Below, piece after piece: positions 1 to 15,499 of a stretch of DNA of 64,000 nucleotides. How positions within the stretch are numbered: the stretch's first letter is position 1; every line of letters starts with the position of its first letter. Made by a program: the position numbers and the translations under genes. The stretch spans positions 6,433 through 70,432 of the forward strand of contig CAJARJ010000015.1 of NCBI GenBank assembly GCA_903944345.1, in the 5' to 3' direction. The notes beneath the pieces are model-generated. The model ran no database searches. It was not told the DNA's origin and was given only the letters and a program-made list of their open reading frames with translations. Source of the DNA: Candidatus Omnitrophota bacterium (GTDB taxonomy: Bacteria; Omnitrophota; Gorgyraeia; Zapsychrales; Fredricksoniimonadaceae).

Positions 1-3000
1 TGACTGAGGCCTCCGCCGTGCTCAATGCACAAGGCAACAGTGTCAGCGGTATCGTCCGCGAGTTTTGCTGCTCCGCTCACATAAATATACGCCCCCTGCT
101 CCAGCCAAGCGTAGATATCTTTGGCTTGCTCCTGGATCCGGTGCGTCACATAGACCTTGCGGGCCTGATCCCTGGAAAAGGCTGTGCTAAGACGAGACAA
201 TATCCCGTTCTTAAGATACGCTTCCCATTCTTCCTGGTACAGAAAATCTGTCGCCGCATAAGGATTGCCGAAGAAGAGCCAATTCCGGCCGGAATGTCCC
301 TGGGCTGCCCGCTCCTGGACAAAGGCGCGGAAGGGAGCAACACCCGTCCCGGCGCTGACCATAATGACAGGCGCACTCCTGTCCACCGGCAGCCGGAAAT
401 TCTCATTCGGCCGTATGAAGATCGGGACCTTTTCACCGGTCTGGACCCTATCCGTCAAGAACGTTGAGGCCAGTCCTTCTTTATCACGCCCCGCGGTCCG
501 GTAACGCACCGCTTTAACAAGGATCTCTAGATGATCAGGATCTGCGCTTTGCGAAGAAGCGATCGAATAAAGCCTGGGCGGAATAGGCCTCAGGACTTCC
601 CGCAGATCGTCAGCCCGGTACTGCACAGGAAAATGCATCAGAATATCAATAAAATCCCTGCCCCGCAGGAACTCTTTCAGCCGCAGAGAGTCGGCGAGAA
701 TCTCGCTCAGCATCCGGCTTTGGGCAAACCTGTTGTGACTCTCCAGAACCGGGGGGATCAATACGGTTAATTCCATGCCCTTAAGGAACTCAGCCAGGCT
801 TCCTCCGTCGGACATTGTGGTCAGCGCGGATAATTGCAATTGCGAAAGCAATTCATCGACCAGTTGCGGCGAATTCTGTGACACCACCCCGCAGGAATCT
901 CCGGGCAGATAAGTGATTCCCGAGCCCTTGATCTCAAACTGAATATGATAAGTCTCTTTCAGGGAATGGCCCTTATGCAGGTCCTGCTTCGACAGGATTA
1001 CCGCAGGAAACGGATTCTTCGCGGAGTATCCGGAACTTCCGACGCCATCCGCAGCAGGTAAAACAGCGAAAAAATCCTCTTTGAGCCCGGCAGCATTAGC
1101 CGGCAACAAAGTCCCAAGCGCGCCCTTCAGCCAAAGCCCAGCGCTTTCCGAGAGATCAACGTCACAATCGACGCGTTTGAAAATGCGGTGTCCGCCAAGT
1201 TTCTCCAACTGGACATCCAGATCCCTGCCCGCCGAGCAGAAATGGACATAACTCCTGTCCCCCAAAGCCAGGACCGAAAAAGAGACTCCGGATAGATCAG
1301 GGGGCTGGCGGCTGTACAGGTACTCAAAAAGATCTTCCGCGGCCGCCGGCGCCTCCCCTTCTCCATAAGTGCTGATGATGGCCAGGATCACCTTCTCCTC
1401 TGGCAGATCATGCAAATCATAGGCCGCCATATCACAGCGCTTGACCTTAAAGCCTAGCCTCTGGGCATAAACCTCGGCTTTCCTGGCAAAACTTTTACCG
1501 TTCCCGGAATGCGATGCCACCAAGAGTGTCAACTCAACACCGTTCGGCACAACATCGCCGACAGCAACCGCAGTCGGCATGTCGATGTCCTTTTTCCGGG
1601 GCAGTGCTTTAGCCTCGCGCACCAGAGCCGGCATGGAGTGCGTGTTGGCCTCCACTCCAGCGAGACGTTGGCGGCATTGGTCAAGCTGATCAAGCATACG
1701 CGCTTTGGCCGCGGCTGTCTCCTCTTGGATCAAGGGGATGAGCGCCTGATAATAGTCAATGCCCAGCGATAAATTCGTATGGAATTCTTCGAAGTCGCTG
1801 TCTTTCTTATCGCCTGTCCCTGTGCGTCGGTCCTGGACCATCTGGTCAAGAAAATCGATATTCAACATTAGCTCTTTGATGAACATATGGGGACGGTCGG
1901 GATGATTCATTAAGCTCATCCGCCCGTAGATATGGTCGACCATTTCTCGTAAAGATGCCACACGGTCAAAATAGGCGATGTTGGGACCCGGACATACCGC
2001 CGGAAAAACCCCCGCATCCTTCTTGGGGATGCCGCGCAGCGCATACACCGTGTCGCCCAGTTCATTGCAGATGCAGGCCTTGGCCGTGATCCGCTTGAAA
2101 CGCAGTTGATATTCGGATTCGGACAGATCCAGCCGTTTCAATTCAGCGATCTTGAGGGTCTGATACTGGCGCGAGGCCGTACACAGCGGTTGCTCGGTGA
2201 ATTCCGTGTTGCTGACGAGATGGCCCAAAGGGCACGGACTTCCCGGCTTTCCATCGTCGATAAGCTGGCGTTTGTGCTCTTCGCTAGGGGAATCCTTCAG
2301 GGTATAGAACGGTACGCCTACCGGCGAGACATCGCTCAAATACAGGTCATCTTCCCGGGCCCGCGCCAGCTTGTCCAGAAGATGCGGCTCAACCGGCGTG
2401 ACTTCCGGGACCAGCAAGAACGGACTGCCCCATCCCGTGGAGTCCAGTCCATAATTTCGTCGAATAAAAACATCTTCCTGCGAGGTCCCGATGCCTCCCT
2501 GGGCCGTCACCCGAAAGGCCGGCCACGCATCAGGTACGGGCCTGTTCTGCTGCTTGAGGGCTTCACTGCAGATCTGCGTCAATTCGGCGGTCAGATGCTC
2601 CCGCCGGGCCTTGAGCTCAGCCAGGACCGGCCCTATCAGAAACCCGTTGCCCGCAAACGCGTGTCCCCCGCAATTCAACCCCGATTCGATGCGGTACTCC
2701 GAGACCCAAAGCCCCTTTTTGGCAAAGAACTTGCCCTGGACCACAGCTGAACGGTAATCGCTGACCTTAAGGATGATCTCTTTCTTAACCCGTCCGGTCC
2801 GATCCATAAAGAAATCATCAAACTCCGTTGAATACGAATACAGCCGGCGGTTGAGACCGGCAGAAAAAACAATACTCGATTGCGTTGTGCTTCCCAACCG
2901 GCTTTGGGCATATCCGCGCAGAGCCGCCAACGCATCCGAATAGATCTCGGCCATAGGCTCTCCGGACTTATCAAAATTGGTGCGGTCAAGCTTGGTCATG

Positions 3001-3440
3001 ATGTTGACATTGATCGACCCGGGCAGGATGCTCTCGCGCAGTTCATCCTCAAAGCGCTGCCTTACCTCTCCCCCTGACGTCAGCATCCGGTCATAGATAA
3101 CCCTGAGGGGCGAACGATCAGAAAGTAGCTCGAAATATCGAGTGATCTCAGTACCCGGCGAAAAAGAAGACCCCTTGAGATCATCAAACTGCTGTCTGAC
3201 GATCTCATCAATCAAGTCGAGATATGCCGTTATCCGGCAGGCGCGCCAATCGTCATCATATTTACGGATCGGGCGATATTCTTTATTGTATTGCGCGCTA
3301 TAAACCCGGCGCAGTTCCTCCAGCAACTGATCGTCAACCAGGGAAATGACAGATGAAATACCGTAACGGGCCACGCGCAGCGGCGTGTCCGAGGTAAATC
3401 CGGTACCCATGACCGGAACATGGAATGTATGTATGCCCAT
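1..3440 (-). CDS. Large multidomain flavoprotein, at least 1146 aa, C-terminus beyond the window edge (missing from the ORF track because no stop lies in the window). N-terminal ~560-aa domain, possibly an FMN TIM-barrel (NPD/FabK-like), fused to a complete CysJ/CPR-like diflavin reductase (flavodoxin plus FAD/NADPH-binding FNR).
   Basis: My own translation of the minus strand from the ATG at 3440 (in-frame TAG just upstream at 3471-3473) runs without a stop to position 1. The C-terminal part has a flavodoxin motif 'ISTYGEGEAP...LALGDRSYVHFC', an FAD motif 'RLYSIASS', and an NADPH motif 'PVIMVSAGTGVAPFRAFVQER...WLFFGNP', as in CysJ / cytochrome P450 reductase. The N-terminal part ('PVMGTGFTSDTPLRVARYGISS', 'NCGGHAF', 'VTAQGGIGTS') weakly resembles the GGMAW / EAGGH / AAGGIADG motifs of nitronate-monooxygenase / FabK TIM barrels. 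Confidence 0.7.
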   Translation of the reverse strand, partial: MGIHTFHVPVMGTGFTSDTPLRVARYGISSVISLVDDQLLEELRRVYSAQYNKEYRPIRKYDDDWRACRITAYLDLIDEIVRQQFDDLKGSSFSPGTEITRYFELLSDRSPLRVIYDRMLTSGGEVRQRFEDELRESILPGSINVNIMTKLDRTNFDKSGEPMAEIYSDALAALRGYAQSRLGSTTQSSIVFSAGLNRRLYSYSTEFDDFFMDRTGRVKKEIILKVSDYRSAVVQGKFFAKKGLWVSEYRIESGLNCGGHAFAGNGFLIGPVLAELKARREHLTAELTQICSEALKQQNRPVPDAWPAFRVTAQGGIGTSQEDVFIRRNYGLDSTGWGSPFLLVPEVTPVEPHLLDKLARAREDDLYLSDVSPVGVPFYTLKDSPSEEHKRQLIDDGKPGSPCPLGHLVSNTEFTEQPLCTASRQYQTLKIAELKRLDLSESEYQLRFKRITAKACICNELGDTVYALRGIPKKDAGVFPAVCPGPNIAYFDRVASLREMVDHIYGRMSLMNHPDRPHMFIKELMLNIDFLDQMVQDRRTGTGDKKDSDFEEFHTNLSLGIDYYQALIPLIQEETAAAKARMLDQLDQCRQRLAGVEANTHSMPALVREAKALPRKKDIDMPTAVAVGDVVPNGVELTLLVASHSGNGKSFARKAEVYAQRLGFKVKRCDMAAYDLHDLPEEKVILAIISTYGEGEAPAAAEDLFEYLYSRQPPDLSGVSFSVLALGDRSYVHFCSAGRDLDVQLEKLGGHRIFKRVDCDVDLSESAGLWLKGALGTLLPANAAGLKEDFFAVLPAADGVGSSGYSAKNPFPAVILSKQDLHKGHSLKETYHIQFEIKGSGITYLPGDSCGVVSQNSPQLVDELLSQLQLSALTTMSDGGSLAEFLKGMELTVLIPPVLESHNRFAQSRMLSEILADSLRLKEFLRGRDFIDILMHFPVQYRADDLREVLRPIPPRLYSIASSQSADPDHLEILVKAVRYRTAGRDKEGLASTFLTDRVQTGEKVPIFIRPNENFRLPVDRSAPVIMVSAGTGVAPFRAFVQERAAQGHSGRNWLFFGNPYAATDFLYQEEWEAYLKNGILSRLSTAFSRDQARKVYVTHRIQEQAKDIYAWLEQGAYIYVSGAAKLADDTADTVALCIEHGGGLS

Positions 3441-3672
3441 ATACCTGATACCATAATTTATTTTCGTGGACTATTGACCACGGTAACTATGCTGAAAGTA
3501 ACTGAGCAGAAACTGATTTATTGGTCGGGAACACCCCTACGAACTTACCTTTTATTTTGTCCCGAGATTTATCAACAGTTTACAAAAGGCGGAGTTTCGC
3601 TTGTTTGCCATTCTTTGCTAGTCATTAGGGGTGTTAGCACGGGATGCCGAGGGTTCTCATTGAGAACGCCAA

Positions 3673-5004
3673 TCAGGCAAGTTTCTTATCCAATGCAAGA
3701 TCAATAAACTTGTCGAGATGGTCCGCCAAAAACAACGGAACATTGAGAAGGTTGCCGTCCTTTTTAAGATTCTTTAGTGAAAATCTCACCCTTAAGGACG
3801 GCGCATATTTCTGATCATACAGGGTCAAACTCTTCCCGTGCACAGACTCATCCGATTTAACTTCTATGGGAATGATCTCATTGCCACGCTGAAGGGTAAA
3901 ATCAACTTCAGCGGTTGCTCCGGAAGACCAGTATCTTGGCAAACCTTCATACTGCACCACCAGACTTTGCAGCACGTAATTCTCGGAAAGAGCGCCTTTA
4001 AACTCTGCAAACAGGCGGTTTCCCTCATGGAACGACACCGGATCAAGGAGCGCAAGCCGTCGCAAAAGTCCGACATCAACCAGATACAGTTTAAATGCAC
4101 TCGGATCATCATAAGCGGACACCGGAAGCGCGGGTTTTGTATTCCGGTAGATCTTATATCCAAGCCCCGCATGACAAAGCCAGGTCATCGCATCTTCATA
4201 TTCCCTGGCCCTCGCCCCTTCCTTAACTGCCTTATAGACAAATTTCTTGTTCTCTTTTGAAAGCTGTGACGGAACAGAAGACCAGATCAGGCCCAGTTTG
4301 GCGATATCTTTTATTTCCGCGTGTTTTGAGAAATCAAGCTCATAAGCTTCCAATATATCCCGCAACACCTTTTGAACGCGGGCGGCATCCTTGTCTTGTG
4401 CCCAAGCCAGCACCGACTCCGGCATACCACCGGTAATAAAATACATCTTCAATCTTTCCTGCAACTGATTGTAAAAAAGATCCGAAATGGGATCCAGCGT
4501 GCCGATTTGATCAATAAACTGAACAAGTTTTTCTTCTCCCAACGACCACAAGAATTCCGTGAATGTCATGGGATACACCGTCAAAAATTCCACTTTCCCA
4601 ACGGGAAAAGAAGATGGTTTTGAAACCTTGATCCCCAACAGAGATCCCGCACAGGCAACATGATATTCCGGCGCATTCTCATAAAAATATTTGAGCGCAT
4701 TCAAAGCCGCGTTACATTCCTGAATCTCGTCAAAGATAATGAGCGTTTTCCCCGGGAGAATCGGAGCGCCATTAATCATGGCAAGACTCTCCAGAAGCCT
4801 TTTTATGTCCTTGGTCGTTTCAAAATATTGCTTTAACTCACCCTGTTCATCAAAATTAAAATACGCCGTATTTTCATAACATTGCCTGCCCAATTCCTTG
4901 AGCAACCATGTTTTTCCAACCTGCCGGGCTCCTTTCAATACAAGAGGCTTCCGCTGTTGGGAATTCTTCCATAAAATCAACTTATCAATAGCTAATCGCC
5001 GCAT
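3673..5004 (-). CDS. AAA+ superfamily ATPase (COG1373-type, N-terminal P-loop with a DUF4143-like C-terminal region)
   Basis: Walker A 'LKGARQVGKTWLL' and Walker B 'LIIFDEIQ'. Overall layout is typical of the widespread 'ATP-binding protein' family. Lower GC than the flanking core genes. Confidence 0.75.
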   Translation of the reverse strand: MRRLAIDKLILWKNSQQRKPLVLKGARQVGKTWLLKELGRQCYENTAYFNFDEQGELKQYFETTKDIKRLLESLAMINGAPILPGKTLIIFDEIQECNAALNALKYFYENAPEYHVACAGSLLGIKVSKPSSFPVGKVEFLTVYPMTFTEFLWSLGEEKLVQFIDQIGTLDPISDLFYNQLQERLKMYFITGGMPESVLAWAQDKDAARVQKVLRDILEAYELDFSKHAEIKDIAKLGLIWSSVPSQLSKENKKFVYKAVKEGARAREYEDAMTWLCHAGLGYKIYRNTKPALPVSAYDDPSAFKLYLVDVGLLRRLALLDPVSFHEGNRLFAEFKGALSENYVLQSLVVQYEGLPRYWSSGATAEVDFTLQRGNEIIPIEVKSDESVHGKSLTLYDQKYAPSLRVRFSLKNLKKDGNLLNVPLFLADHLDKFIDLALDKKLA

Positions 5005-5027
5005 AAATCACCTTATTCCTTAGAATT

Positions 5028-5043
5028 GTGTGATACAAATCAC
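5028..5043. promoter_or_regulatory. Perfect TGTGA-N6-TCACA palindrome (CRP/FNR/Rex-type operator geometry), 24-39 nt upstream of the AAA+ ATPase start codon
   Basis: Sequence tgtgatacaaatcaca at 5028-5043. Function is inferred from geometry only. Confidence 0.3.
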
Positions 5044-5094
5044 ATTAATCTAACGAAAGTATACACTGACGGTTTGTAAAAACAAGGATAATTC

Positions 5095-5862
5095 TTAAAC
5101 CGGCGGGTACTGTTTCGGAGCCTTGCCTTTACTCTGCAAAACAACCGGCAGTTTCTGTCCCGGCAAGATCGCCCGGACTTCTTTCAACTCAACGGAAAAC
5201 CGCCAGTCATCCCCATAGTCGAACATAAAGAACATCTTCTTACCCACAACCGGGAAAGCCGCAGAAATCAGCACATTCTTAACGCCCTTGGCATGCGGAG
5301 CGCTCGGGGCCTCGCCAATATCCACGAATAGCTCATAGATCTCGGCCTGCTTGGAAGTCGGGTGCGCGGCCGGATCCCCATAGAAAGCAAAACAATGGTC
5401 CAGCTTAAACCCGACCGACTTAATGATCGCCTCGGCCAAATGATAAAGACTCCGGAAACTCGATACCGCAACAGTCCGCACCACATCCACACCTTCGGGA
5501 GGATACTGAAGCATCCTGACCTCAAAAACAGACACCGCAAATTTTGGGGCATCCTTCTTGTCCATCACCGGCCGACCATGCTGGCGCACATGATCCCTTA
5601 ACCGGGAATACCGCTCCAGTCTCTCGCACAAGGCATGAAGCCGGGCTTCTTTCTTAGCGGACTTGGTGTGATTGGCTTCAAACGCTAAGGCACCCAGACA
5701 TTCTTCAAGATCCTCATAATCAAACCGGAGAAGCAAACCACCCTCCTCAGCCTTGGCCCTGTCGATCACCTCACAAAGCCCGGGCTCCAGATGCTGAACA
5801 CCCGCGATCAGTTTAAACTCATCAGGAGTAACCAAAAAGGAAATCGCGCTCCGTTTCATCAT
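5095..5862 (-). CDS. pRiA4b ORF-3-like family protein (PF07929-like)
   Basis: The C-terminal motif 'FMFDYGDDWRFSVEL' matches the hallmark Y-x-Y-D-F-G-D-x-W-x-H motif of plasmid pRiA4b ORF3-like proteins. Confidence 0.55.
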   Translation of the reverse strand: MMKRSAISFLVTPDEFKLIAGVQHLEPGLCEVIDRAKAEEGGLLLRFDYEDLEECLGALAFEANHTKSAKKEARLHALCERLERYSRLRDHVRQHGRPVMDKKDAPKFAVSVFEVRMLQYPPEGVDVVRTVAVSSFRSLYHLAEAIIKSVGFKLDHCFAFYGDPAAHPTSKQAEIYELFVDIGEAPSAPHAKGVKNVLISAAFPVVGKKMFFMFDYGDDWRFSVELKEVRAILPGQKLPVVLQSKGKAPKQYPPV

Positions 5863-5978
5863 TGCTCCGCCGTCTTAAACCAAAAGATATGCACAATCCT
5901 TACATTTTATGTAACATTCGTGCGCATTCACGCATGAAGACTAATGCATAATTATTACATAAATTTCTTTAATTCATG

Positions 5979-6458
5979 TCACAACTGAAAAATATGCCCA
6001 CACCGACCGCAGATCCAGCTTGATTTCCACTCATCAAAATCGCGCTGAAAAATTACGTCCGTCCTTGCCTTCCTGACTTTAGCCTCTTGCATATCTTTTA
6101 CCATTAACAAAACTAAAATTATCCCCAACAGTATTGCAACAGGAATATCTTTCATAAAGGAAACTATGACAAACGGAGAAATAGCACAAACCCATCGAAT
6201 CCATAAGGAATTATAGCGATACTTCTCATCCGTTATTTTTGGTGGTGCTATCCGCTGTGCCAAGACACTTTGGGCCACTCCTGAAGTCACAGCTGTTGAC
6301 CCATTAAGACCGGCCACCCCCTGCCGATCCACAGTGACCCCAGCGCCAATAGTCGTAAAATTAATCTGCCTTGTGTCTGCCTCATAATACAGGCTAAGCG
6401 CCTGAATATTCTCATTCTGGCATTGAGGGCATATATATTTTATTGATTCTGACTTCAC
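5979..6458 (-). CDS. Hypothetical membrane protein with two CxxC zinc-ribbon-like pairs
   Basis: N-terminal 'CPQCQ' and C-terminal 'CGRCGH', with two hydrophobic segments between them. AT-rich island context. No recognised family. Confidence 0.45.
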   Translation of the reverse strand: MKSESIKYICPQCQNENIQALSLYYEADTRQINFTTIGAGVTVDRQGVAGLNGSTAVTSGVAQSVLAQRIAPPKITDEKYRYNSLWIRWVCAISPFVIVSFMKDIPVAILLGIILVLLMVKDMQEAKVRKARTDVIFQRDFDEWKSSWICGRCGHIFQL

Positions 6459-6502
6459 AAATTCCCAGCTCTGTTATTTCTGCGAACCTCTACCGCAATC
6501 TC

Positions 6503-6814
6503 TCACAATATTCTTTTAGCGCGTTCTTCACGAATAAAATTAGACGACCGAGCTTCACTATTGGTTAAACAGCAAAAATCTGTCTGTAAATCATACCGAT
6601 TCTGCACAAGCGTACAAATCGCCGATCTCAGAGCCTTCAAATCTTCTAAAACAATTCTACTTGGATCATAAACAATCAACACATCTAGATCTCCGATGAA
6701 AGAGTTTTTTCTAGTGACCGAACCAAAAAGATACAATTGGTATCCTTCTTTCCAAGAAATAACCGTTTTAGCGATCTTCTGGAAGTCTATAATCGAGAAA
6801 CTTCTTCCCATCAT
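6503..6814 (-). CDS. Minimal nucleotidyltransferase (MNT / Pol-beta superfamily), MntA/AbiEii-like
   Basis: Motif 'LFGSVTRKNSFIGDLDVLIVYD' fits GS-x(9-10)-D-x-D. Small size (103 aa) is typical of toxin-antitoxin / defence nucleotidyltransferases. Confidence 0.7.
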   Translation of the reverse strand: MMGRSFSIIDFQKIAKTVISWKEGYQLYLFGSVTRKNSFIGDLDVLIVYDPSRIVLEDLKALRSAICTLVQNRYDLQTDFCCLTNSEARSSNFIREERAKRIL

Positions 6815-7151
6815 AATTTACTGCTCCTAAAAATTCTCTAAATGAAAATATTCCCACACCATTTTCTTTACCATGCACCTTAACTTCTGGAGTGTACGAA
6901 TTCCACGCACTCATTGAGATGATAGCTCTAATATCAGGAGCATCTGCAACAGCCTCTTCATAATCTGAGACCGAGAATATATAAATATTAGTCGTGTGCG
7001 CTACTAAATCAGACAATGAACCTCTTTTAATAAGAAGATTTTGCGAACCATTTCTTATAATAGTTAATGATCGCGACTCCAAAGATCTAATAAGCTGCGA
7101 AACGCTCTCGGGCCTTGGAATCTTCTTGTACCTTGGGCTAGCATCAGGCAT
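6768..7151 (-). CDS. Hypothetical protein (127 aa), overlaps the MNT gene start and lies directly downstream of the HNH gene
   Basis: Only plausible coding frame between the HNH and MNT genes. No Rx4-6H HEPN motif found. Start codon uncertain. Confidence 0.4.
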   Translation of the reverse strand: MPDASPRYKKIPRPESVSQLIRSLESRSLTIIRNGSQNLLIKRGSLSDLVAHTTNIYIFSVSDYEEAVADAPDIRAIISMSAWNSYTPEVKVHGKENGVGIFSFREFLGAVNYDGKKFLDYRLPEDR

Positions 7152-7162
7152 GCCAGATTTTC

Positions 7163-7870
7163 CTATCGTAGAAATACCTTGTTAATTTGGGATGGAAACA
7201 AAGGAGCAGAAGAATCTTTATCTCCTGAAATATGGTTAAATTCAAAAGCAAAAACATGAAGCCTCAATTGCTCGATAATTAATACATGTCTCTTAACCAA
7301 GTGTCTATTGCCATCGAGAAGGGCCAGCAACCTCCTATTGTTAGGAATAATCTCACTAAGGACCATACGCCGCCAAGTTCTTGCCGCATCAGAAAGTAAC
7401 TTAGTTGCGCTATTTGAACATGGGCCATACTCATCATAAATTGCTTTATTACGATGCAAAAGCAGGGATACCTCATTCTTAAGCAAATTAAAACCCTTAA
7501 AGCGTGGCACATGAAACATGCCTTGAATCTTTTCCAAATGCGTTCGTTTCCATTCCGAAAGAAGTTTCTTCGTGTAAACCTCTTCTTGAGCGTCAACAAT
7601 TTTATGGCAAACCGGACACAGCATCACAATGTTATTAGGAGAATGAACGGCCGCACCATCATTGCCTCGACGCCCTTTACATCTAGGTCCACCCTTTGAT
7701 TGTGGAAGTATATGAGCAAATTCTTCAATAAATACGCGCTTCCCATTTAAAGCAACCTTCATCAGCGACTGGTTGCATGCAGGATTCTGGCAAAAACCTC
7801 CTGTAGACATCCAAAGCTCTCGCTTGACATCCATGCTTATGGAATATTTCTTATTCTTACATGACCTCAT
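7163..7870 (-). CDS. HNH endonuclease with a ~120-aa C-terminal extension
   Basis: 'HILPQSKGGP...NNIVMLCPVCHKIVD' is an HNH/His-Me finger. A GAGGT Shine-Dalgarno sits 9 nt upstream of the ATG. Confidence 0.7.
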   Translation of the reverse strand: MRSCKNKKYSISMDVKRELWMSTGGFCQNPACNQSLMKVALNGKRVFIEEFAHILPQSKGGPRCKGRRGNDGAAVHSPNNIVMLCPVCHKIVDAQEEVYTKKLLSEWKRTHLEKIQGMFHVPRFKGFNLLKNEVSLLLHRNKAIYDEYGPCSNSATKLLSDAARTWRRMVLSEIIPNNRRLLALLDGNRHLVKRHVLIIEQLRLHVFAFEFNHISGDKDSSAPLFPSQINKVFLR

Positions 7871-7885
7871 GCTTTATACCTCACG

Positions 7886-8108
7886 TCACGACAAGGCAAA
7901 GATCGACTCGGCGCCGAACCAATTTGACAATGTATTTAACGCCCGAACGGAAAGCTTCTGAGTAAAAAGCAATGCTAAACGCTTCTTAGGGCGTGAACAA
8001 GTAACATAGAATAAGTTCCGATTACGCTCAAACATCTCTTGTTTATTAGCCGGAATTCGTCGATCATCCGCCGCTAACTCAAGGTACTCATTAAAATTAT
8101 AGTTACCC
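7886..8108 (-). pseudogene. C-terminal remnant (~74 codons) of an SF1 (UvrD/DNA2-like) helicase, truncated by the IS3-family insertion
   Basis: Open frame abutting the IS end encodes '...NRNLFYVTCSRPKKRLALLF...', matching helicase motif VI (YVAxTRAKxxLxL) near the extreme C-terminus. It stops 16 nt before the HNH start, an operon-like spacing. No N-terminal part exists on the other side of the IS. Confidence 0.5.
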
Positions 8109-8113
8109 GGACC

Positions 8114-8941
8114 TTACCCCGTTGACTGTACCAACTCAAGTTGGAGTTTTTCCTGTTCCTTTTCAAAGAATTCACTAGGCGTAAGATCATCCAGTGAGCT
8201 GTGAGGACGCTCAGTATTATAGCCTACTCGCCAGCCCTCTATGATGTTCCGGGCTTCCTGAAGGCTCATAAACCAGTTATCATTTAGGCATTCGTCCCGA
8301 AGCCGTCCGTTAAAACTTTCAATGAATCGGTTATCTACCGGCTTGCCTGGCCTCGAGAAGCGAAGTTGAACGCCTCGTTCATACGCCCAGGCATCCAATG
8401 CCTTGCCGATAAACTCAGGGCCATTATCGACTTTGATAATATTCGGCAATCCTCGCACCATAGCGATCCGGCTTAGGACATTCGTTACGCGAACACCATT
8501 GATCGACGTATCAACTTCTATGGCCAGACATTCCCTCGTGTATTCATCGATCAACGTCAATAACCTAATCTTGCGGCCATTAGACAGAGCATCTGATACA
8601 AAGTCCATGGCCCAGCGTTCGTTCTGCTTGGTTGCAGGCGGCAATGGATTGCGCACAACAGCCGCAAACTTCCTGCGACGACGAATCCTTAAAGACAACC
8701 CTTCCGCCCGATAAAGACGCTCAGTCCGTTTATGGTTCACAATGCACCCTTCACGCCTGATCAGAACATGTAAACGAATATGCCCATAGCGCCGATGCTT
8801 CTCAGCCAGTTCTTTTAATCGCTTGCGCAGACGCTCATTAAGTTCACTGAGCTTTGGCTGATAATGCATAACCGTCCGCGACACATCGACCAGATCGCAG
8901 GCCCGCCGCTGGGACAAGCCGTGTTCGCTGATCATGTGCAA
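8114..8941 (-). CDS. IS3-family transposase OrfB (DDE integrase catalytic core), expressed as an OrfAB fusion by -1 frameshift
   Basis: rve-like core with D...D...E spacing ('WAMDFVSD', 'DNGPEF', 'ESFNGRLRDE'). Confidence 0.85.
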   Translation of the reverse strand: MHMISEHGLSQRRACDLVDVSRTVMHYQPKLSELNERLRKRLKELAEKHRRYGHIRLHVLIRREGCIVNHKRTERLYRAEGLSLRIRRRRKFAAVVRNPLPPATKQNERWAMDFVSDALSNGRKIRLLTLIDEYTRECLAIEVDTSINGVRVTNVLSRIAMVRGLPNIIKVDNGPEFIGKALDAWAYERGVQLRFSRPGKPVDNRFIESFNGRLRDECLNDNWFMSLQEARNIIEGWRVGYNTERPHSSLDDLTPSEFFEKEQEKLQLELVQSTG

Positions 8942-8967
8942 CGCGGCTTGCTTCTTTACTTTGGGCC

Positions 8968-9231
8968 TTAGAATTTTTTTGAGAGAACATCCTTTAGGGC
9001 CCGATTGTCCAGCGATAGATCGGCCACCATCTGCTTCAATCTTGTGTTCTCTGCCTCAAGAGCCTTCAGCTTTCGCAGATCTGAGACCTCCATCCCGGAA
9101 TACTTGGCCTTCCACTTGTAAAACGTGGCATCCGAGATCCCATGTTGCCGGCAAAGTTCTCCTGTCTTGGCTCCTGCTTCGGACTCCTTGAGCACTGCGA
9201 TGATCTGTTCTTCGGTGTATCTTTTTGCCAT
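8968..9231 (-). CDS. IS3-family transposase OrfA (HTH plus leucine zipper)
   Basis: 'MAKRYTEEQIIAVLKE...ELCRQHGISDATFYKWKAKY' is a classic IS3/IS911 OrfA. Confidence 0.85.
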   Translation of the reverse strand: MAKRYTEEQIIAVLKESEAGAKTGELCRQHGISDATFYKWKAKYSGMEVSDLRKLKALEAENTRLKQMVADLSLDNRALKDVLSKKF

Positions 9232-12701: not shown

Positions 12702-13015
12702 TCAGAACTGTATAAAAAGATATTCGTATGACCCAAACCACTGCGGTTGAGTCCGAACTTGCAAAATCGAATCTGGAATGAAAACAGTCCGGGTAGATTA
12801 ACATCCGCCCAGTTGTCCGTCAAATAAAATTTCCAGATACCGCCTGCCCGTAGCCTCTACGGGCGAAGAGACCTTTTTTGAAAGCATGTTTGTTTGACGT
12901 ATACCTTTGTGTATGTTATTCTTACGCTAACATTTTACGCCGGTCTCAGCCGCTGGTACAGAATTCTGACCCTGTAACAGCCCGAATTAATATTAACTTT
13001 TTTCCGAGGACCTTT

Positions 13016-15499
13016 ATGCCAAAAATCAAGTTTCTCACATGGCTGCAACTTAACTGGGTCAAACTTCTTCTTATAGCTTTGGCTGCGTCTTTTGTGATCA
13101 CGGTCGTGACCATGCTCGTTTTTGGCTTCAGCAGCTTTGCCTCGCTGGAATCCTTCAGCCGCAAACAGATGATGGCCCAGATGGGGATGTACCTTTTTAT
13201 GGGCATTGTGCAAGGCGTCATTTTTACCTCGATGTACGGCGTCATGTACTACTTCATGTTCATGGGTGGCGGCATGGCCAAATTTCTGGGCAGCGATTCT
13301 GCCACGCATACCAAAGCCAACGTTAAGTGGGACGAAGTCATCGGCATGGAACAGGCCAAAAAAGAGGCCTGGGAAATTGTGCAATTCCTCAAAGATCGCA
13401 AACTGCTGAAGGTTATTGGCGGCAACATCATCAAAGGAGCACTGCTGGTCGGCGGCCCCGGCTGCGGTAAAACTTACCTGGCCAAAGCCATCGCCACTGA
13501 GGCAGGCCTGCCTTTTATTTCCGCTGTCGGCAGCGAGTTTGTAGCCATGTTTGTTGGACTCGGAGCCGCCCGCATGAAATCCCTGTTCAAAGAAGCCCGC
13601 AAAATGGCCAAACTGGAAGGCGGCTGTATCATTTTCATTGACGAGATCGACTCTTTTGCCCGTCCGCGCACCGGCGAATCACCCGGCAACATAGGAGCAC
13701 AGAACGATCACAACGCCACCATCAACCAGTTTCTGACCGAACTCGACGGACTGCGCCAGACAGAAAACAACATTGTCGTTATCGCCGCCACCAACGTCCC
13801 CGAAGAAGAACTGGATCCGGCCATCATGCGCTCGGGCCGCTTTGACCGCAAAATCGAAATCAACAAGCCGACAGCCCATGACCGGGAAGCCCTGCTGCGC
13901 TTCTACCTCAAGAAGATTTCCTCCGACCCCGAGATTAATATCACCGATACCGCCGACCGGATGAAATGGTTCTCGCCGGCTGACGTTAACAACATGGTGC
14001 GGGAAGCGGCCATTATCGCCATGCGCGAGTCCCGGCAGCACGCCAACCAGCAGGACATCAACAAAGCACTTGAACGCGTCATGCATTCCCTCGAAAAAAC
14101 CGGCGGCGACAAAATCCTTTCCTCCCGCATCAACGTGAAGTGGACTGAAGTTATCGGCATGGAAAGCGCCAAAAAAGAAGCCTGGGAAATCGTGGAACTG
14201 CTCAAGGATCGCAGTCTTGTGCAGGCTATCGGCGGAAAAATCGTCAAAGGTATCCTTCTGCTGGGGCCGCCGGGCTGCGGCAAGACCCATCTGGCCAAAG
14301 CCATGGCCACCGAAGCCGGCTACCCGTTTATATCGGTCAGCGGCAGCGAGTTTATTGAAATGTTTGTCGGTGTCGGCCCCAAACGCGTCCGTTCGCTCTT
14401 TAAGGAAGCGCGCGCGTTAGCCAAGGTCGAAGGCGGCTGCATTATTTTTGTAGACGAAATCGACTCCTTTGCCTCGCCGCGCGGCATCGAAATGGGCGGT
14501 GGCGGGATGACCGAACACAATAACACCATCAACCAGTTTCTCACAGAGATGGATGGCCTGCGCCACAACGAAAACAATATTGTTATTCTTGCCGCCACCA
14601 ATGTTGCCGAAAACCAGCTGGATCAGGCTCTTCTGCGGGCCGGACGGTTTGAGCGCAAGATTTATGTGACCCGGCCAAACCTTAATGAACGGCGCGACCT
14701 CTTTGATTTCTATCTCAAAAAAGTCCAGACTGCCGAGGACGTCAAATCTGACATGCTGGCCCGCAAAACACTGTGGTTTTCCCCGGCCGATATCGATAAC
14801 ATGATCCGTGAAGCCGGACTGATTGCCCTGCGCGAGAAACGTGATCGCATCAACTTCAAAGACTTGTCCAAAGCCTACGACCGCATTCTTTACGGCGAAA
14901 AATCCAACACTATTCTCAGCCAGCACGAAAAAGAATGGGTCTCCTATCACGAGGCCGGGCACGCTATTATCGGCTATCTGCTGCATCCGACCAACGACGT
15001 CATTAAAGCCACCATCATTCCGCACAAGGGTGCGCTGGGATTTGTGGCTCCCCGACCGAAAGAAGAAGTCAATATCCGCAGCAAGGAATGGTATCTGGCA
15101 GAAATCAAGGTTTCGGTTGCCAGCTACGCAGCGGAAAAAATCAAGTTCGGCACTACCGGCAGCGGTGTTTCAGCGGATTTCCAGAGCGCCTTGTCCACGG
15201 CCCGCCAGATGGTCTGGAACTGGGGCATGGGACGTTCCGGCCTGCTGGGAGACCTGTCCATGACCGGGCACCCGCACCAGTCCCTGATCTCGGAACGAAC
15301 CAAAGAAAAGCTCGATGACGACGTTCAGGAGATACTCACCTCCTGTCTCAAGGAAGTGACTGAAATTCTTTCGCGCAGAACCGACCTGCTGGATACTTTT
15401 GCGCAGGAACTGCAGGCCAAAGGAGAGTTGGAATACGACGAAATCCAGGCGATCTTTGACCGTTTTGGCCTTAAACCCGAAACCCGGTTACTCGCATGA
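13016..15499 (+). CDS. FtsH-like membrane AAA+ zinc metalloprotease with two tandem AAA+ modules and one C-terminal M41 peptidase domain
   Basis: Two complete AAA modules: 'VGGPGCGKTYLAKA...IIFIDEIDS...ATNVPEEELDPAIMRSGRFDRKI' and 'LGPPGCGKTHLAKA...IIFVDEIDS...ATNVAENQLDQALLRAGRFERKI'. The protease motif 'HEAGHAI' follows. Two N-terminal TM helices with only a short periplasmic loop. Start chosen at the ATG at 13016, which has a GAGGA Shine-Dalgarno 8 nt upstream, rather than the ORF-track ATG at 12878. Confidence 0.8.
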   Translation: MPKIKFLTWLQLNWVKLLLIALAASFVITVVTMLVFGFSSFASLESFSRKQMMAQMGMYLFMGIVQGVIFTSMYGVMYYFMFMGGGMAKFLGSDSATHTKANVKWDEVIGMEQAKKEAWEIVQFLKDRKLLKVIGGNIIKGALLVGGPGCGKTYLAKAIATEAGLPFISAVGSEFVAMFVGLGAARMKSLFKEARKMAKLEGGCIIFIDEIDSFARPRTGESPGNIGAQNDHNATINQFLTELDGLRQTENNIVVIAATNVPEEELDPAIMRSGRFDRKIEINKPTAHDREALLRFYLKKISSDPEINITDTADRMKWFSPADVNNMVREAAIIAMRESRQHANQQDINKALERVMHSLEKTGGDKILSSRINVKWTEVIGMESAKKEAWEIVELLKDRSLVQAIGGKIVKGILLLGPPGCGKTHLAKAMATEAGYPFISVSGSEFIEMFVGVGPKRVRSLFKEARALAKVEGGCIIFVDEIDSFASPRGIEMGGGGMTEHNNTINQFLTEMDGLRHNENNIVILAATNVAENQLDQALLRAGRFERKIYVTRPNLNERRDLFDFYLKKVQTAEDVKSDMLARKTLWFSPADIDNMIREAGLIALREKRDRINFKDLSKAYDRILYGEKSNTILSQHEKEWVSYHEAGHAIIGYLLHPTNDVIKATIIPHKGALGFVAPRPKEEVNIRSKEWYLAEIKVSVASYAAEKIKFGTTGSGVSADFQSALSTARQMVWNWGMGRSGLLGDLSMTGHPHQSLISERTKEKLDDDVQEILTSCLKEVTEILSRRTDLLDTFAQELQAKGELEYDEIQAIFDRFGLKPETRLLA

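What the first reader, a model, noticed from the sequence alone, without database searches (positions are those of the whole stretch)
1..3440. Unusual fusion: ~560-aa N-terminal domain (possibly an FMN TIM barrel) fused to a complete CysJ/CPR-type diflavin reductase
The C-terminal ~590 aa are an unmistakable flavodoxin plus FNR diflavin reductase (ISTYGEGEAP, RLYSIASS, AGTGVAPFRAF). Diflavin reductases usually act as electron donors for a partner. Here the partner appears fused at the N-terminus and is neither a P450, a NOS oxygenase nor a sulfite reductase haemoprotein (no matching Cys/haem motifs). Weak resemblance to nitronate-monooxygenase / FabK-like FMN TIM barrels suggests a self-sufficient flavin-dependent redox enzyme. 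The gene is absent from the ORF track because it runs off the window. I recovered it by translating the minus strand myself.
Basis: partly seen in the sequence, partly recalled or inferred. Interest (0 to 1): 0.55.

Follow-up and report, generated by a model that had tools for sequence, protein, structure and literature searches.

The report
Unknown flavoenzyme fused to NADPH reductase
This gene joins a member of a large, unnamed enzyme family (an FMN barrel plus a cysteine-rich, probably iron-sulfur, module) to a complete NADPH-driven electron-supply module, and that natural fusion is the first concrete clue to how the family works.

Summary
A stop-free minus-strand frame runs from the ATG at 3440 to the window edge (1146 codons). 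An identical 1158-aa database protein shows that only 22 C-terminal residues lie outside the window.

Residues 637-1168 are a CysJ-type diflavin reductase with flavodoxin-like FMN, FAD and NADPH domains. E. coli CysJ matches at E 2.5e-109.

Residues 1-~600 hit no Pfam or NCBIfam model. They belong to a large standalone family of ~600-aa "hypothetical proteins" (at least 8000 clusters at 90% identity) found in many phyla.

An AlphaFold model (pLDDT 81) matches H. pylori FabX (FMN plus [4Fe-4S]), a trans-AT PKS enoyl reductase and nitronate monooxygenase. After the barrel comes a subdomain with five invariant cysteines and no solved counterpart, probably an Fe-S site.

The fusion is real and inherited. 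There are 13 clusters at 55-59% identity, they are colinear, and they form one clade nested among standalone members.

The most likely electron path is NADPH to FAD to FMN to Fe-S to barrel FMN to substrate. The substrate is unknown. One lead is acyl or lipid chemistry, from the closest folds and a PlsC-type acyltransferase fusion. The other is Fe-S or redox stress, from the neighbourhoods. I rate it a new variant of a known kind, moderately high interest.

The parts
1..3440 (-). Coding sequence of the fusion protein. Codons 1-1146 lie in the window. The last 22 codons and the stop lie beyond coordinate 1, giving a full length of 1168 aa.
   Evidence: The frame is stop-free. The 100%-identical full-length protein P0121 appears on 5 contigs.
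2406..3440 (-). aa 1-345: (beta-alpha)8 barrel of the nitronate-monooxygenase/FabK/FabX type, the presumed FMN site.
   Evidence: AF2 model with pLDDT 81 and alternating strand/helix pattern. Foldseek top hits are FabX, DfnA ER, 2-nitropropane dioxygenase and the yeast FAS chain.
3030..3332 (-). aa 37-137: helical insertion between barrel strands 1 and 2, which helps explain why the module is about 240 aa longer than FabX.
   Evidence: Secondary structure of the model shows helices 37-50, 65-89, 98-104, 111-121 and 124-137.
3396..3416 (-). PVMGTGF (aa 9-15), a glycine-rich loop after strand 1. The position is analogous to FabX FMN contacts G22/G23/G25.
   Evidence: Coordinates checked. G12 is invariant. 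FabX contacts come from PMC8626469. The correspondence rests on motif position and spacing and is an inference.
2661..2687 (-). E252-S-G-L-N-C257-G-G-H260: the counterpart of the FabK/FabX E...GxH active-site motif (FabX E175, G180, catalytic H182), with an added invariant Cys257.
   Evidence: Invariant in 79 family members. Coordinates checked. FabX residues.
2484..2507 (-). T312-A-Q-G-G-I-G-T319, a likely FMN phosphate-binding loop. S334-T-G-W-G-S-P-F (2418-2441) follows 19 residues later, the same spacing as G221 to Q240/T243 in FabX.
   Evidence: Q314, G315, G316, G318, T319 and G336 are invariant. Coordinates checked.
1887..2405 (-). aa 346-518: cysteine-rich subdomain with invariant C403 (2232-2234), C420 (2181-2183), C456 and C458 (2067-2075) and C483-P-G-P-N (1980-1994). 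Proposed Fe-S cluster site.
   Evidence: All five Cys are 100% conserved in 79 sequences. The subdomain model has pLDDT 85 but no PDB match better than E 0.3. FabX carries its [4Fe-4S] in the same place, after the barrel.
1638..1886 (-). aa 519-601: three long helices that close the N-terminal module.
   Evidence: Helices 519-539, 547-570 and 576-601 in the model.
1533..1637 (-). aa 602-636: poorly conserved linker between the catalytic module and the reductase.
   Evidence: pLDDT is below 50 from aa 604. The sequence differs among fusion orthologs. It replaces the N-terminal ~57 residues of the cysJ model.
1131..1532 (-). aa 637-770: flavodoxin-like FMN domain (LVASHSGNGK, STYGEGEAP, LGDRSY).
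   Evidence: Pfam Flavodoxin_1 at E 2.5e-24. Aligned to E. coli CysJ.
381..1025 (-). aa 806-1020: FAD-binding/connecting domain (RLYSIASS at 552-575).
   Evidence: Pfam FAD_binding_1 at E 7.8e-24. CysJ alignment.
1..362 (-). aa 1027-1146: NADPH-binding domain (GTGVAPFRAF). YVSGA (69-83) stands where CysJ has YVCGD. The C-terminal ...LQDVY lies outside the window.
   Evidence: Pfam NAD_binding_1 at E 2.3e-15. Alignment. Motif survey. P0121 sequence.

Best explanation
The gene encodes a conserved, catalytically self-sufficient oxidoreductase built from two modules.

The N-terminal module (~600 aa) belongs to a large, unnamed family. Its core is a nitronate-monooxygenase/FabK/FabX-like FMN barrel with an invariant Glu...Cys-Gly-Gly-His active-site loop. 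A subdomain with five invariant cysteines follows and most likely holds an iron-sulfur cluster. A three-helix bundle closes the module.

After a flexible ~35-aa linker comes a CysJ-type diflavin reductase.

Proposed electron path: NADPH gives a hydride to FAD. Single electrons pass to the flavodoxin-like FMN, then to the Fe-S cluster, then to the barrel FMN. The barrel FMN delivers two electrons to a bound substrate with a polarised double bond (enoyl-type C=C, or a C=N or N-O function), with His260 and Cys257 acting in proton transfer.

Standalone family members, which are the great majority, would take the same electrons from free flavodoxin or ferredoxin.

Shown here: the domain architecture, conservation and single origin of the fusion, the fold class of the barrel, and the invariance of the cysteines. 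Inferred: FMN binding, the Fe-S cluster, the direction of electron flow, and the substrate class.
For: An intact ORF and an identical full-length protein on 5 contigs.

Thirteen fusion clusters at 55-59% identity. The N half is 62-66% identical and the C half 48-53%, with motifs at the same positions. The fusion N-domains form one clade nested among standalone proteins.

All three cofactor domains of the reductase are present, and E. coli CysJ matches at E 2.5e-109.

Fold search of the N-domain model (pLDDT 81, pTM 0.83): FabX at 1e-8, DfnA enoyl reductase at 5e-5, 2-nitropropane dioxygenase at 1e-4, and the yeast fatty acid synthase chain at 7e-4.

The motifs E252...G258-G259-H260, Q314-G-G-I-G and T335-G336 are invariant. 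Their spacing resembles that of the FabX FMN-contact residues E175/G180/H182, G221 and Q240/T243.

Five cysteines after the barrel are 100% conserved, one of them in a Cys-Pro context. FabX has a [4Fe-4S] subdomain at the same position, where it replaces the NAD(P)H site of FabK.

From established knowledge: diflavin reductases split a hydride into single electrons and normally feed metal centres (haem in P450 BM3 and NOS, siroheme/Fe4S4 in CysI, cobalamin in methionine synthase). A one-electron acceptor is therefore expected in the fused partner.
Against: No sequence-level link to the NMO family was found. Pfam and NCBIfam are silent even at E <= 1, and PDB profile searches gave only spurious hits. 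The barrel assignment therefore rests on a predicted structure, with modest TM-scores (0.38 by query length, 0.61 by target length).

The cysteine spacing (C-x16-C-x35-C-x-C-x24-C) is unlike that of FabX (C-x3-C-x3-C-x11-C), and the subdomain has no solved counterpart. The cysteines could bind zinc or form disulfides instead.

No neighbouring gene is conserved across phyla, so the substrate stays open.

An N-terminal Fe-S enzyme followed by a C-terminal diflavin reductase can also run in reverse, as in pyruvate:NADP+ oxidoreductase.
Confidence: 0.6

Rival explanations
1. Same architecture, opposite direction. The N-module is a dehydrogenase that oxidises a low-potential substrate, and the electrons leave through Fe-S, FMN and FAD to reduce NADP+. 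Euglena and Cryptosporidium pyruvate:NADP+ oxidoreductase (PFOR fused to a CysJ-like reductase) works this way.
For: The domain order, an Fe-S enzyme at the N-terminus and a diflavin reductase at the C-terminus, matches that of PNO (own knowledge). The closest fold, FabX, is a dehydrogenase rather than a reductase.
Against: FabX-type acyl dehydrogenation has a redox potential far too positive to reduce NADP+ (established thermodynamics of the enoyl/acyl couple). FabX uses O2 as acceptor. Most diflavin fusions run from NADPH to the partner. No low-potential substrate is suggested by any neighbourhood.
Confidence: 0.15
2. The N-module is not a small-molecule enzyme. It is a redox relay or maintenance factor for Fe-S proteins, comparable to the eukaryotic Tah18/NDOR1-Dre2 pair. 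It would supply electrons for the assembly, repair or activation of Fe-S and radical-SAM enzymes.
For: Nineteen of 71 lineage groups have at least one of these neighbours within 5 kb: BioB (8 groups, always divergent at about 174 bp), ThiC (7), HemN (5), NadA (4), IscA-like (4), Rrf2 (4; 55-107 bp downstream on the same strand in the Bacteroidota/Cytophagales-type loci), RIC/YtfE (3; one at +40 bp on the same strand) and POR (4). A diflavin reductase feeding a Cys-rich Fe-S protein is exactly the Tah18-Dre2 arrangement; the CIA review and research papers surfaced.
Against: The module has an enzyme-like barrel with an invariant Glu/Cys/His loop and flavin-type glycine motifs, which a pure relay would not need. 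The lineage groups are not independent (about 9 separate contexts), and the neighbours are common housekeeping genes. The gene is mostly monocistronic. The module has no similarity to Dre2.
Confidence: 0.12
3. It is simply the assimilatory sulfite reductase flavoprotein CysJ, as the databases name it, with an irrelevant N-terminal extension.
For: JGI and NCBI call the fusion proteins 'sulfite reductase flavoprotein alpha-component'. The best NCBIfam hit is cysJ.
Against: The cysJ score of 540 bits is below the curated cutoff of 668, and the match starts at model position 58, so the CysJ N-terminal region is missing. No sulfite or nitrite reductase haemoprotein gene lies within 10 kb. The 'extension' is more conserved than the reductase (62-66% against 48-53%) and is a widespread family in its own right.
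Confidence: 0.03
4. The fusion is an artefact: a misassembly or sequencing error joined two adjacent genes.
For: None was found. It was considered only because the gene runs off the window.
Against: The identical protein occurs on 5 contigs from at least two samples. Twelve further clusters at 55-59% identity have the same colinear architecture in unrelated assemblies from NCBI, JGI, ENA and Logan.
Confidence: 0.01

Closest known systems
FabX of Helicobacter pylori (FMN + [4Fe-4S] decanoyl-ACP dehydrogenase/isomerase; PDB 7e1q, 9lt5)
   Same: It is the best structural match (E 1e-8). It has an NMO-type FMN barrel with a Glu...Gly-x-His loop, followed by a C-terminal cysteine subdomain that carries the second redox centre and stands where FabK binds NAD(P)H.
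   Different: FabX is 363 aa, against about 600 aa here. HMMER detects no sequence similarity. The cysteine spacing differs, and the Cys subdomain modelled here matches nothing solved, FabX included. FabX passes electrons to O2 and has no fused reductase. This family also has an extra invariant Cys next to the His, a 100-aa helical insertion and a terminal helical bundle.
FabK, nitronate monooxygenase, and trans-acting enoyl reductases of PKS and PUFA synthases (Pfam NMO, PF03060)
   Same: The barrel fold matches (DfnA ER 4cw5 at E 5e-5; 2-nitropropane dioxygenase 2gjl at 1e-4). The glycine-rich flavin motifs are similar.
   Different: The Pfam model does not hit. Those enzymes take the hydride directly from NAD(P)H and have no Fe-S centre and no diflavin partner.
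E. coli CysJ (sulfite reductase flavoprotein; PDB 6efv)
   Same: The C-terminal 530 aa align end to end at E 2.5e-109, with all FMN, FAD and NADPH motifs and the C-terminal ...DVY.
   Different: The score is below the cysJ equivalog cutoff. The N-terminal ~57 residues of the cysJ model are not matched; the linker to the N-module occupies that position. YVCGD is YVSGA here. No CysI gene is nearby.
Self-sufficient diflavin fusions: P450 BM3, nitric oxide synthase, pyruvate:NADP+ oxidoreductase
   Same: The design logic is the same: a catalytic module at the N-terminus tethered to a CPR/CysJ-like reductase at the C-terminus. P450 BM3 and NOS reductase domains appear among the PDB hits.
   Different: Here the catalytic module is neither a haem protein nor PFOR. 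It is an FMN barrel with a cysteine-rich subdomain from an uncharacterised family.
2,4-dienoyl-CoA reductase FadH, clostridial enoate reductases, trimethylamine dehydrogenase
   Same: These are functional analogues. They pass electrons along the chain NAD(P)H, FAD, [4Fe-4S], FMN in a TIM barrel, then to a C=C (or C-N) substrate (own knowledge; FadH is the subject of PMC12691678, listed).
   Different: Those enzymes use an Old-Yellow-Enzyme-type barrel and a glutathione-reductase-like FAD/NADPH domain. Here the barrel is NMO-like and the donor is a diflavin reductase, so the resemblance would be convergent. TMADH appears only as an insignificant fold hit (rank 40).

Membership tests
Diflavin reductase (CysJ/CPR type) | Flavodoxin-like FMN domain | tested here: met
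   Pfam Flavodoxin_1 at E 2.5e-24 over aa 640-764. The FMN loops align to CysJ.
Diflavin reductase (CysJ/CPR type) | FAD-binding domain with the R-x-Y-S motif, and NADPH domain with G-T-G-x-A-P | tested here: met
   FAD_binding_1 and NAD_binding_1 hits. RLYSIASS and GTGVAPFRAF are present.
Diflavin reductase (CysJ/CPR type) | C-terminal aromatic residue stacking on FAD, and the conserved Cys of the YVCGD motif | tested here: inconclusive
   The terminal ...LQDVY is present in full-length P0121. The Cys is replaced, giving YVSGA here and in most fusion orthologues. The consequence is unknown.
CysJ proper (assimilatory sulfite reductase alpha subunit, TIGR01931) | Score above the curated equivalog cutoff, with the N-terminal region present | tested here: not met
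   540.5 bits against a cutoff of 668.15. The match covers model positions 58-573 of 597.
CysJ proper (assimilatory sulfite reductase alpha subunit, TIGR01931) | Partner haemoprotein CysI encoded alongside | tested here: not met
   No sulfite or nitrite reductase domain gene lies within 10 kb on either side in the source contig or in five other fusion loci. The rest of the genome was not available.
NMO/FabK family (Pfam PF03060) | Sequence match to the family model | tested here: not met
   No Pfam or NCBIfam hit in aa 1-630 at E <= 1. PDB profile searches were negative.
NMO/FabK family (Pfam PF03060) | FMN-binding (beta-alpha)8 barrel of this fold class with the catalytic His loop | tested here: met
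   Foldseek probability is 1.00 for FabX, DfnA ER and 2-nitropropane dioxygenase. H260 is invariant in an E-x7-H loop. This rests on a predicted structure only.
NMO/FabK family (Pfam PF03060) | Bound FMN and direct NAD(P)H oxidation | not testable with these tools
   Requires purified protein.
FabX | [4Fe-4S] ligated by C-x3-C-x3-C-x11-C in a C-terminal subdomain | tested here: not met
   The spacing here is C403-x16-C420-x35-C456-x-C458-x24-C483. The subdomain model does not match FabX. FabX residues are from PMC8626469.
FabX | Acyl-ACP dehydrogenase/isomerase activity in unsaturated fatty acid synthesis | not testable with these tools
   No fab or acp genes appear among the recurrent neighbours.

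The most novel reading that the evidence does not exclude
The ~600-aa N-terminal module represents a new class of flavodoxin- or ferredoxin-dependent FMN/Fe-S enzymes. It has a previously unseen cluster-binding subdomain and catalyses a conserved, still unassigned reaction in many mostly uncultured phyla (Omnitrophota, Bacteroidota, Desulfobacterota, Planctomycetota, Kiritimatiellia and others). The CysJ fusion works as a 'Rosetta stone': it reveals the electron donor and offers a one-polypeptide, NADPH-driven version that can be assayed directly.
Probability: 0.4. Interest if true: 0.75.

Novelty: new variant of a known kind. Interest (0 to 1): 0.62.

Why it matters
The standalone family has at least 8000 clusters at 90% identity. 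It is unusually well conserved: members in different phyla share 43-61% identity with the window protein, and about 108 positions are near-invariant. Yet it has no Pfam or NCBIfam model, no name and no solved relative detectable by sequence.

The fusion gives this family its first mechanistic handle. It says the family is redox-active and takes single electrons from a flavodoxin-type donor. It also supplies a self-contained enzyme that needs only NADPH, which makes substrate screening practical.

If the cysteine subdomain binds a cluster, it would also be a new Fe-S fold. More broadly, this would add a non-haem, flavin/Fe-S catalytic partner to the short list of natural diflavin-reductase fusions.

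Tried and rejected
- **Sequence link to NMO, FabK or FabX.** Pfam and NCBIfam at E <= 1, PDB profile searches with the whole module and with the barrel alone, a search of all fetched ORFs with the barrel HMM and with NMO motifs, and tblastn against plasmids all found nothing. The only hits, to ribosomal protein uL29 and apolipoprotein, are spurious. A profile-profile comparison could not be made because no NMO sequences were available.
- **The Cys-rich half modelled alone.** It gave no significant PDB match.
- **Gene context of the fusion.** It is not conserved. In the window, the gene's upstream neighbours are mobile-element genes.
- **Amino-acid-permease adjacency.** It appeared in three loci, but the permeases are not homologous across phyla, so I dropped the lead.
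- **A universally conserved neighbour.** None was found over 131 loci in 71 lineage groups, and the gene is mostly monocistronic.
- **Riboswitch or other RNA element upstream.** None was found.
- **Horizontal-transfer signal.** The gene's GC content (0.53-0.57) lies within the window's range. The low-GC stretch is the adjacent mobile island.
- **Literature.** Five full-text searches found no paper on this family.


Full report
**Observation**

Translating the minus strand gives one stop-free frame from 3470 to 3 (1156 codons). The first in-frame ATG is at 3440. The ORF listing omits the gene only because it runs off the window.

A database protein 100% identical to the window translation (P0121, 1158 aa, on five JGI contigs of up to 201.6 kb) continues for 22 residues past coordinate 1 and ends ...RYLQDVY. 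The missing piece is therefore the C-terminus, not the start. The JGI call begins at Met11. Orthologues conserve HTFH(I/V)PV before that Met, so the ATG at 3440 is the better start and the full length is 1168 aa.

**C-terminal half**

Pfam finds Flavodoxin_1 (aa 640-764), FAD_binding_1 (from aa 806) and NAD_binding_1 (aa 1027-1132). NCBIfam's best model is cysJ at 540 bits. That is below the 668-bit equivalog cutoff, and the match starts at model position 58. E. coli CysJ (6efv) aligns over the whole half at E 2.5e-109, followed by CPR, NOS and P450 BM3 reductase domains.

All cofactor motifs are present. One deviation is that CysJ's YVCGD reads YVSGA here and in most fusion orthologues. This half is a complete diflavin reductase of the CysJ lineage, but it fails the CysJ equivalog test. 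No sulfite reductase haemoprotein gene lies within 10 kb.

**N-terminal half: a large unnamed family**

Residues 1-~630 match nothing in Pfam or NCBIfam even at E <= 1. They also match nothing in PDB sequences.

The best were 61% identical, 580-650 aa long, without Pfam domains, and named 'hypothetical protein'. An exhaustive HMM search of the 50%-identity representatives found 1380 hits at E <= 1e-3 and 381 at E <= 1e-30.

Carriers include Omnitrophota, Elusimicrobia, Pirellulales, Bacteroidota (Cyclobacteriaceae, Chryseolinea, Pontibacter, Draconibacterium), Desulfobacterota (Desulfosarcina BuS5), Polyangiaceae, Ignavibacteria/Kapaibacteria, Chlorobiota, Zixibacteria, Nitrospirota and Gammaproteobacteria.

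Conservation is striking. Members share 43-61% identity with the window protein, and 108 of about 600 positions are at least 97% conserved in a 79-sequence sample.

**Fold of the N-terminal half**

An AlphaFold2 model built on 30 sequences has pLDDT 81 and pTM 0.83. It shows eight strands alternating with helices over aa 1-~345, then a less regular region, then three long helices.

Foldseek against the PDB gives these top matches, all with probability 1.00:
- H. pylori FabX at E 1e-8
- the DfnA trans-AT PKS enoyl reductase at 5e-5
- 2-nitropropane dioxygenase at 1e-4

The yeast fatty acid synthase chain matches at 7e-4 (probability 0.93). That chain contains an FMN enoyl-reductase barrel, by my own knowledge.

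The FabX paper (PMC8626469) lists FMN contacts G22/G23/G25, N99, E175, G180, catalytic H182, G221 and Q240/A242/T243. This family has invariant P-V-M-G-T-G-F (9-15), N146, E252...G258-G259-H260, Q314-G-G-I-G318 and T335-G336. The spacing is similar: G316 to T335 is 19 residues, as is G221 to Q240. I did not obtain a residue-level structural alignment, so this correspondence is an inference. Cys257, three residues before His260, is also invariant.

**Cysteine-rich subdomain**

After the barrel, C403, C420, C456, C458 and C483 (in C-P-G-P-N) are 100% conserved. In FabX, a C-terminal subdomain at the same topological position binds a [4Fe-4S] cluster through C300/C304/C308/C320 and replaces FabK's NAD(P)H site.

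The spacing here is different. The subdomain modelled alone (pLDDT 85) has no PDB match better than E 0.3. I read it as a probable Fe-S site with no solved counterpart. A zinc site is not excluded, and I could not inspect the coordinates.

**The fusion is real, old and of single origin**

A search with the full protein found 13 clusters with the complete architecture: P0121-P0132 at 1158-1177 aa, plus P0133, an N-terminally truncated 992-aa record. They are 55-59% identical to the window protein, and one is from a Kiritimatiellia MAG. Every other listed hit covered only the N half, about 50-55% of the query.

Both halves are colinear, with motifs at the same residue numbers. The N half (62-66% identity) is more conserved than the reductase (48-53%). 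In a neighbour-joining tree the fusion N-domains form one clade nested among standalone proteins, with the window protein branching deepest.

In the scan of species-representative genomes, every locus returned matched either the N half or the C half, never both. Only one 50%-identity representative carries the fusion. It is therefore a rare but stable derivative of a common standalone enzyme.

**Mechanism**

Diflavin reductases accept a hydride at FAD and release single electrons from the flavodoxin-like FMN to a metal centre in a partner. This is established for P450 BM3, NOS, CysI and methionine synthase.

A fused partner with a cysteine-ligated cluster next to a flavin barrel gives the chain NADPH, FAD, FMN, Fe-S, barrel FMN, substrate. 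This is formally the same chain as in 2,4-dienoyl-CoA reductase, but built from unrelated parts. Standalone members would use free flavodoxin or ferredoxin.

The reverse direction, as in pyruvate:NADP+ oxidoreductase, is the main mechanistic rival. I rate it lower because the redox chemistry typical of this fold (enoyl/acyl) cannot reduce NADP+.

**Substrate: two leads, neither decisive**

*Acyl or lipid chemistry.* Apart from 2-nitropropane dioxygenase, the close structural relatives act on acyl or enoyl thioesters. In a Polyangiaceae-like clade the module is fused to a PlsC-type acyltransferase domain (P0269 and P0389, on independent contigs). In a sister lineage a separate acyltransferase gene lies directly downstream. 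Against this lead, no fab or acp genes are recurrent neighbours.

*Fe-S or redox stress.* I examined 131 loci grouped into 71 lineages. The recurrent neighbours within 5 kb are:

| Neighbour | Lineage groups | Note |
|---|---|---|
| BioB | 8 | always divergent, about 174 bp away |
| ThiC | 7 | |
| Thioredoxin reductase | 6 | |
| HemN | 5 | across at least three phyla |
| Rrf2 regulator | 4 | 55-107 bp downstream on the same strand in the Bacteroidota (Cytophagales-type) loci |
| NadA | 4 | |
| IscA-like | 4 | |
| 2-oxoacid:ferredoxin oxidoreductase | 4 | |
| PTPS | 4 | |
| RIC/YtfE | 3 | once 40 bp downstream on the same strand |
| NadB | 3 | |

AhpC- and OsmC-type peroxiredoxins also recur, but were not counted by lineage group.

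Nineteen of the 71 groups have at least one Fe-S-themed neighbour. The groups are not independent, however (about nine separate contexts). These are common housekeeping genes, and the gene is mostly monocistronic.

This pattern could reflect three things:
- shared dependence on low-potential electron donors;
- a role in Fe-S or NO/oxidative-stress physiology;
- chance clustering of cofactor genes.

In the window itself the upstream neighbours are mobile-element genes. On the source contig the downstream neighbour is an RlmL/THUMP-type methyltransferase gene.

**Comparison and novelty**

The protein works like the self-sufficient diflavin fusions (P450 BM3, NOS). By electron path it works like FadH-type FMN/Fe-S reductases.

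It is a member of the diflavin reductase family. It is not CysJ proper, because the cutoff, N-terminal-region and partner tests were not met. Its N-module shares the NMO/FabK/FabX fold but fails sequence membership and the FabX cluster motif.

I found no paper describing the family or the fusion. I classify it as a new variant of a known kind. The interest lies less in the reductase than in the route it opens to a large orphan enzyme family and a possibly new Fe-S subdomain.

Noticed in passing
window 12878-15499 (+): An 873-aa FtsH-like protein with two AAA modules (Pfam AAA x2, AAA_lid_3 x2) ahead of a Peptidase_M41 domain. Canonical FtsH has one AAA module.
   Followed up: no
window ~3600-9000: A low-GC island (0.38-0.48, against about 0.50-0.55 elsewhere) directly upstream of the fusion gene. 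It carries an AAA_14/DUF4143 ATPase (3673-5004), a PRiA4_ORF3-like gene (5095-5862), an HNH nuclease (7163-7870) and an IS3-type transposase (8114-8941).
   Followed up: partly
window 69-83 (-), aa 1120-1124: The reductase has YVSGA where E. coli CysJ has YVCGD. The same change is present in most fusion orthologues, so the conserved active-site Cys of the FNR module is a Ser in this clade.
   Followed up: partly
window 3411-3440 (-): The public JGI gene call for the identical protein (P0121) starts at Met11 and cuts off the conserved HTFHVPV strand. The ATG at 3440 agrees with the orthologues.
   Followed up: yes
L046 7107-10052, L047 4198-7143, L050 7001-10452: In a Polyangiaceae-like clade the same N-domain family is fused to a C-terminal PlsC-type acyltransferase (P0269 at 981 aa, P0389 at 1051 aa). 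In a sister lineage an acyltransferase gene follows as a separate gene 189 bp downstream.
   Followed up: partly
L048 2221-4659, L049 121-2559: An 812-aa protein (P0251) joins an N-terminal TetR-type DNA-binding domain to the family module and was seen on two contigs. It could be a true fusion or a merged gene call.
   Followed up: no
L104 8001-10805: A standalone family member is followed 40 bp downstream, on the same strand, by a RIC/YtfE-type gene (ScdA_N + hemerythrin, 'repair of iron centres'). A second RIC, a PTPS gene and HemN lie within 3.5 kb.
   Followed up: partly
L043 5865-10603: In one fusion locus the gene's start overlaps the stop of an MFS transporter gene that follows an RND efflux pair, which suggests an operon with exporters.
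   Followed up: no
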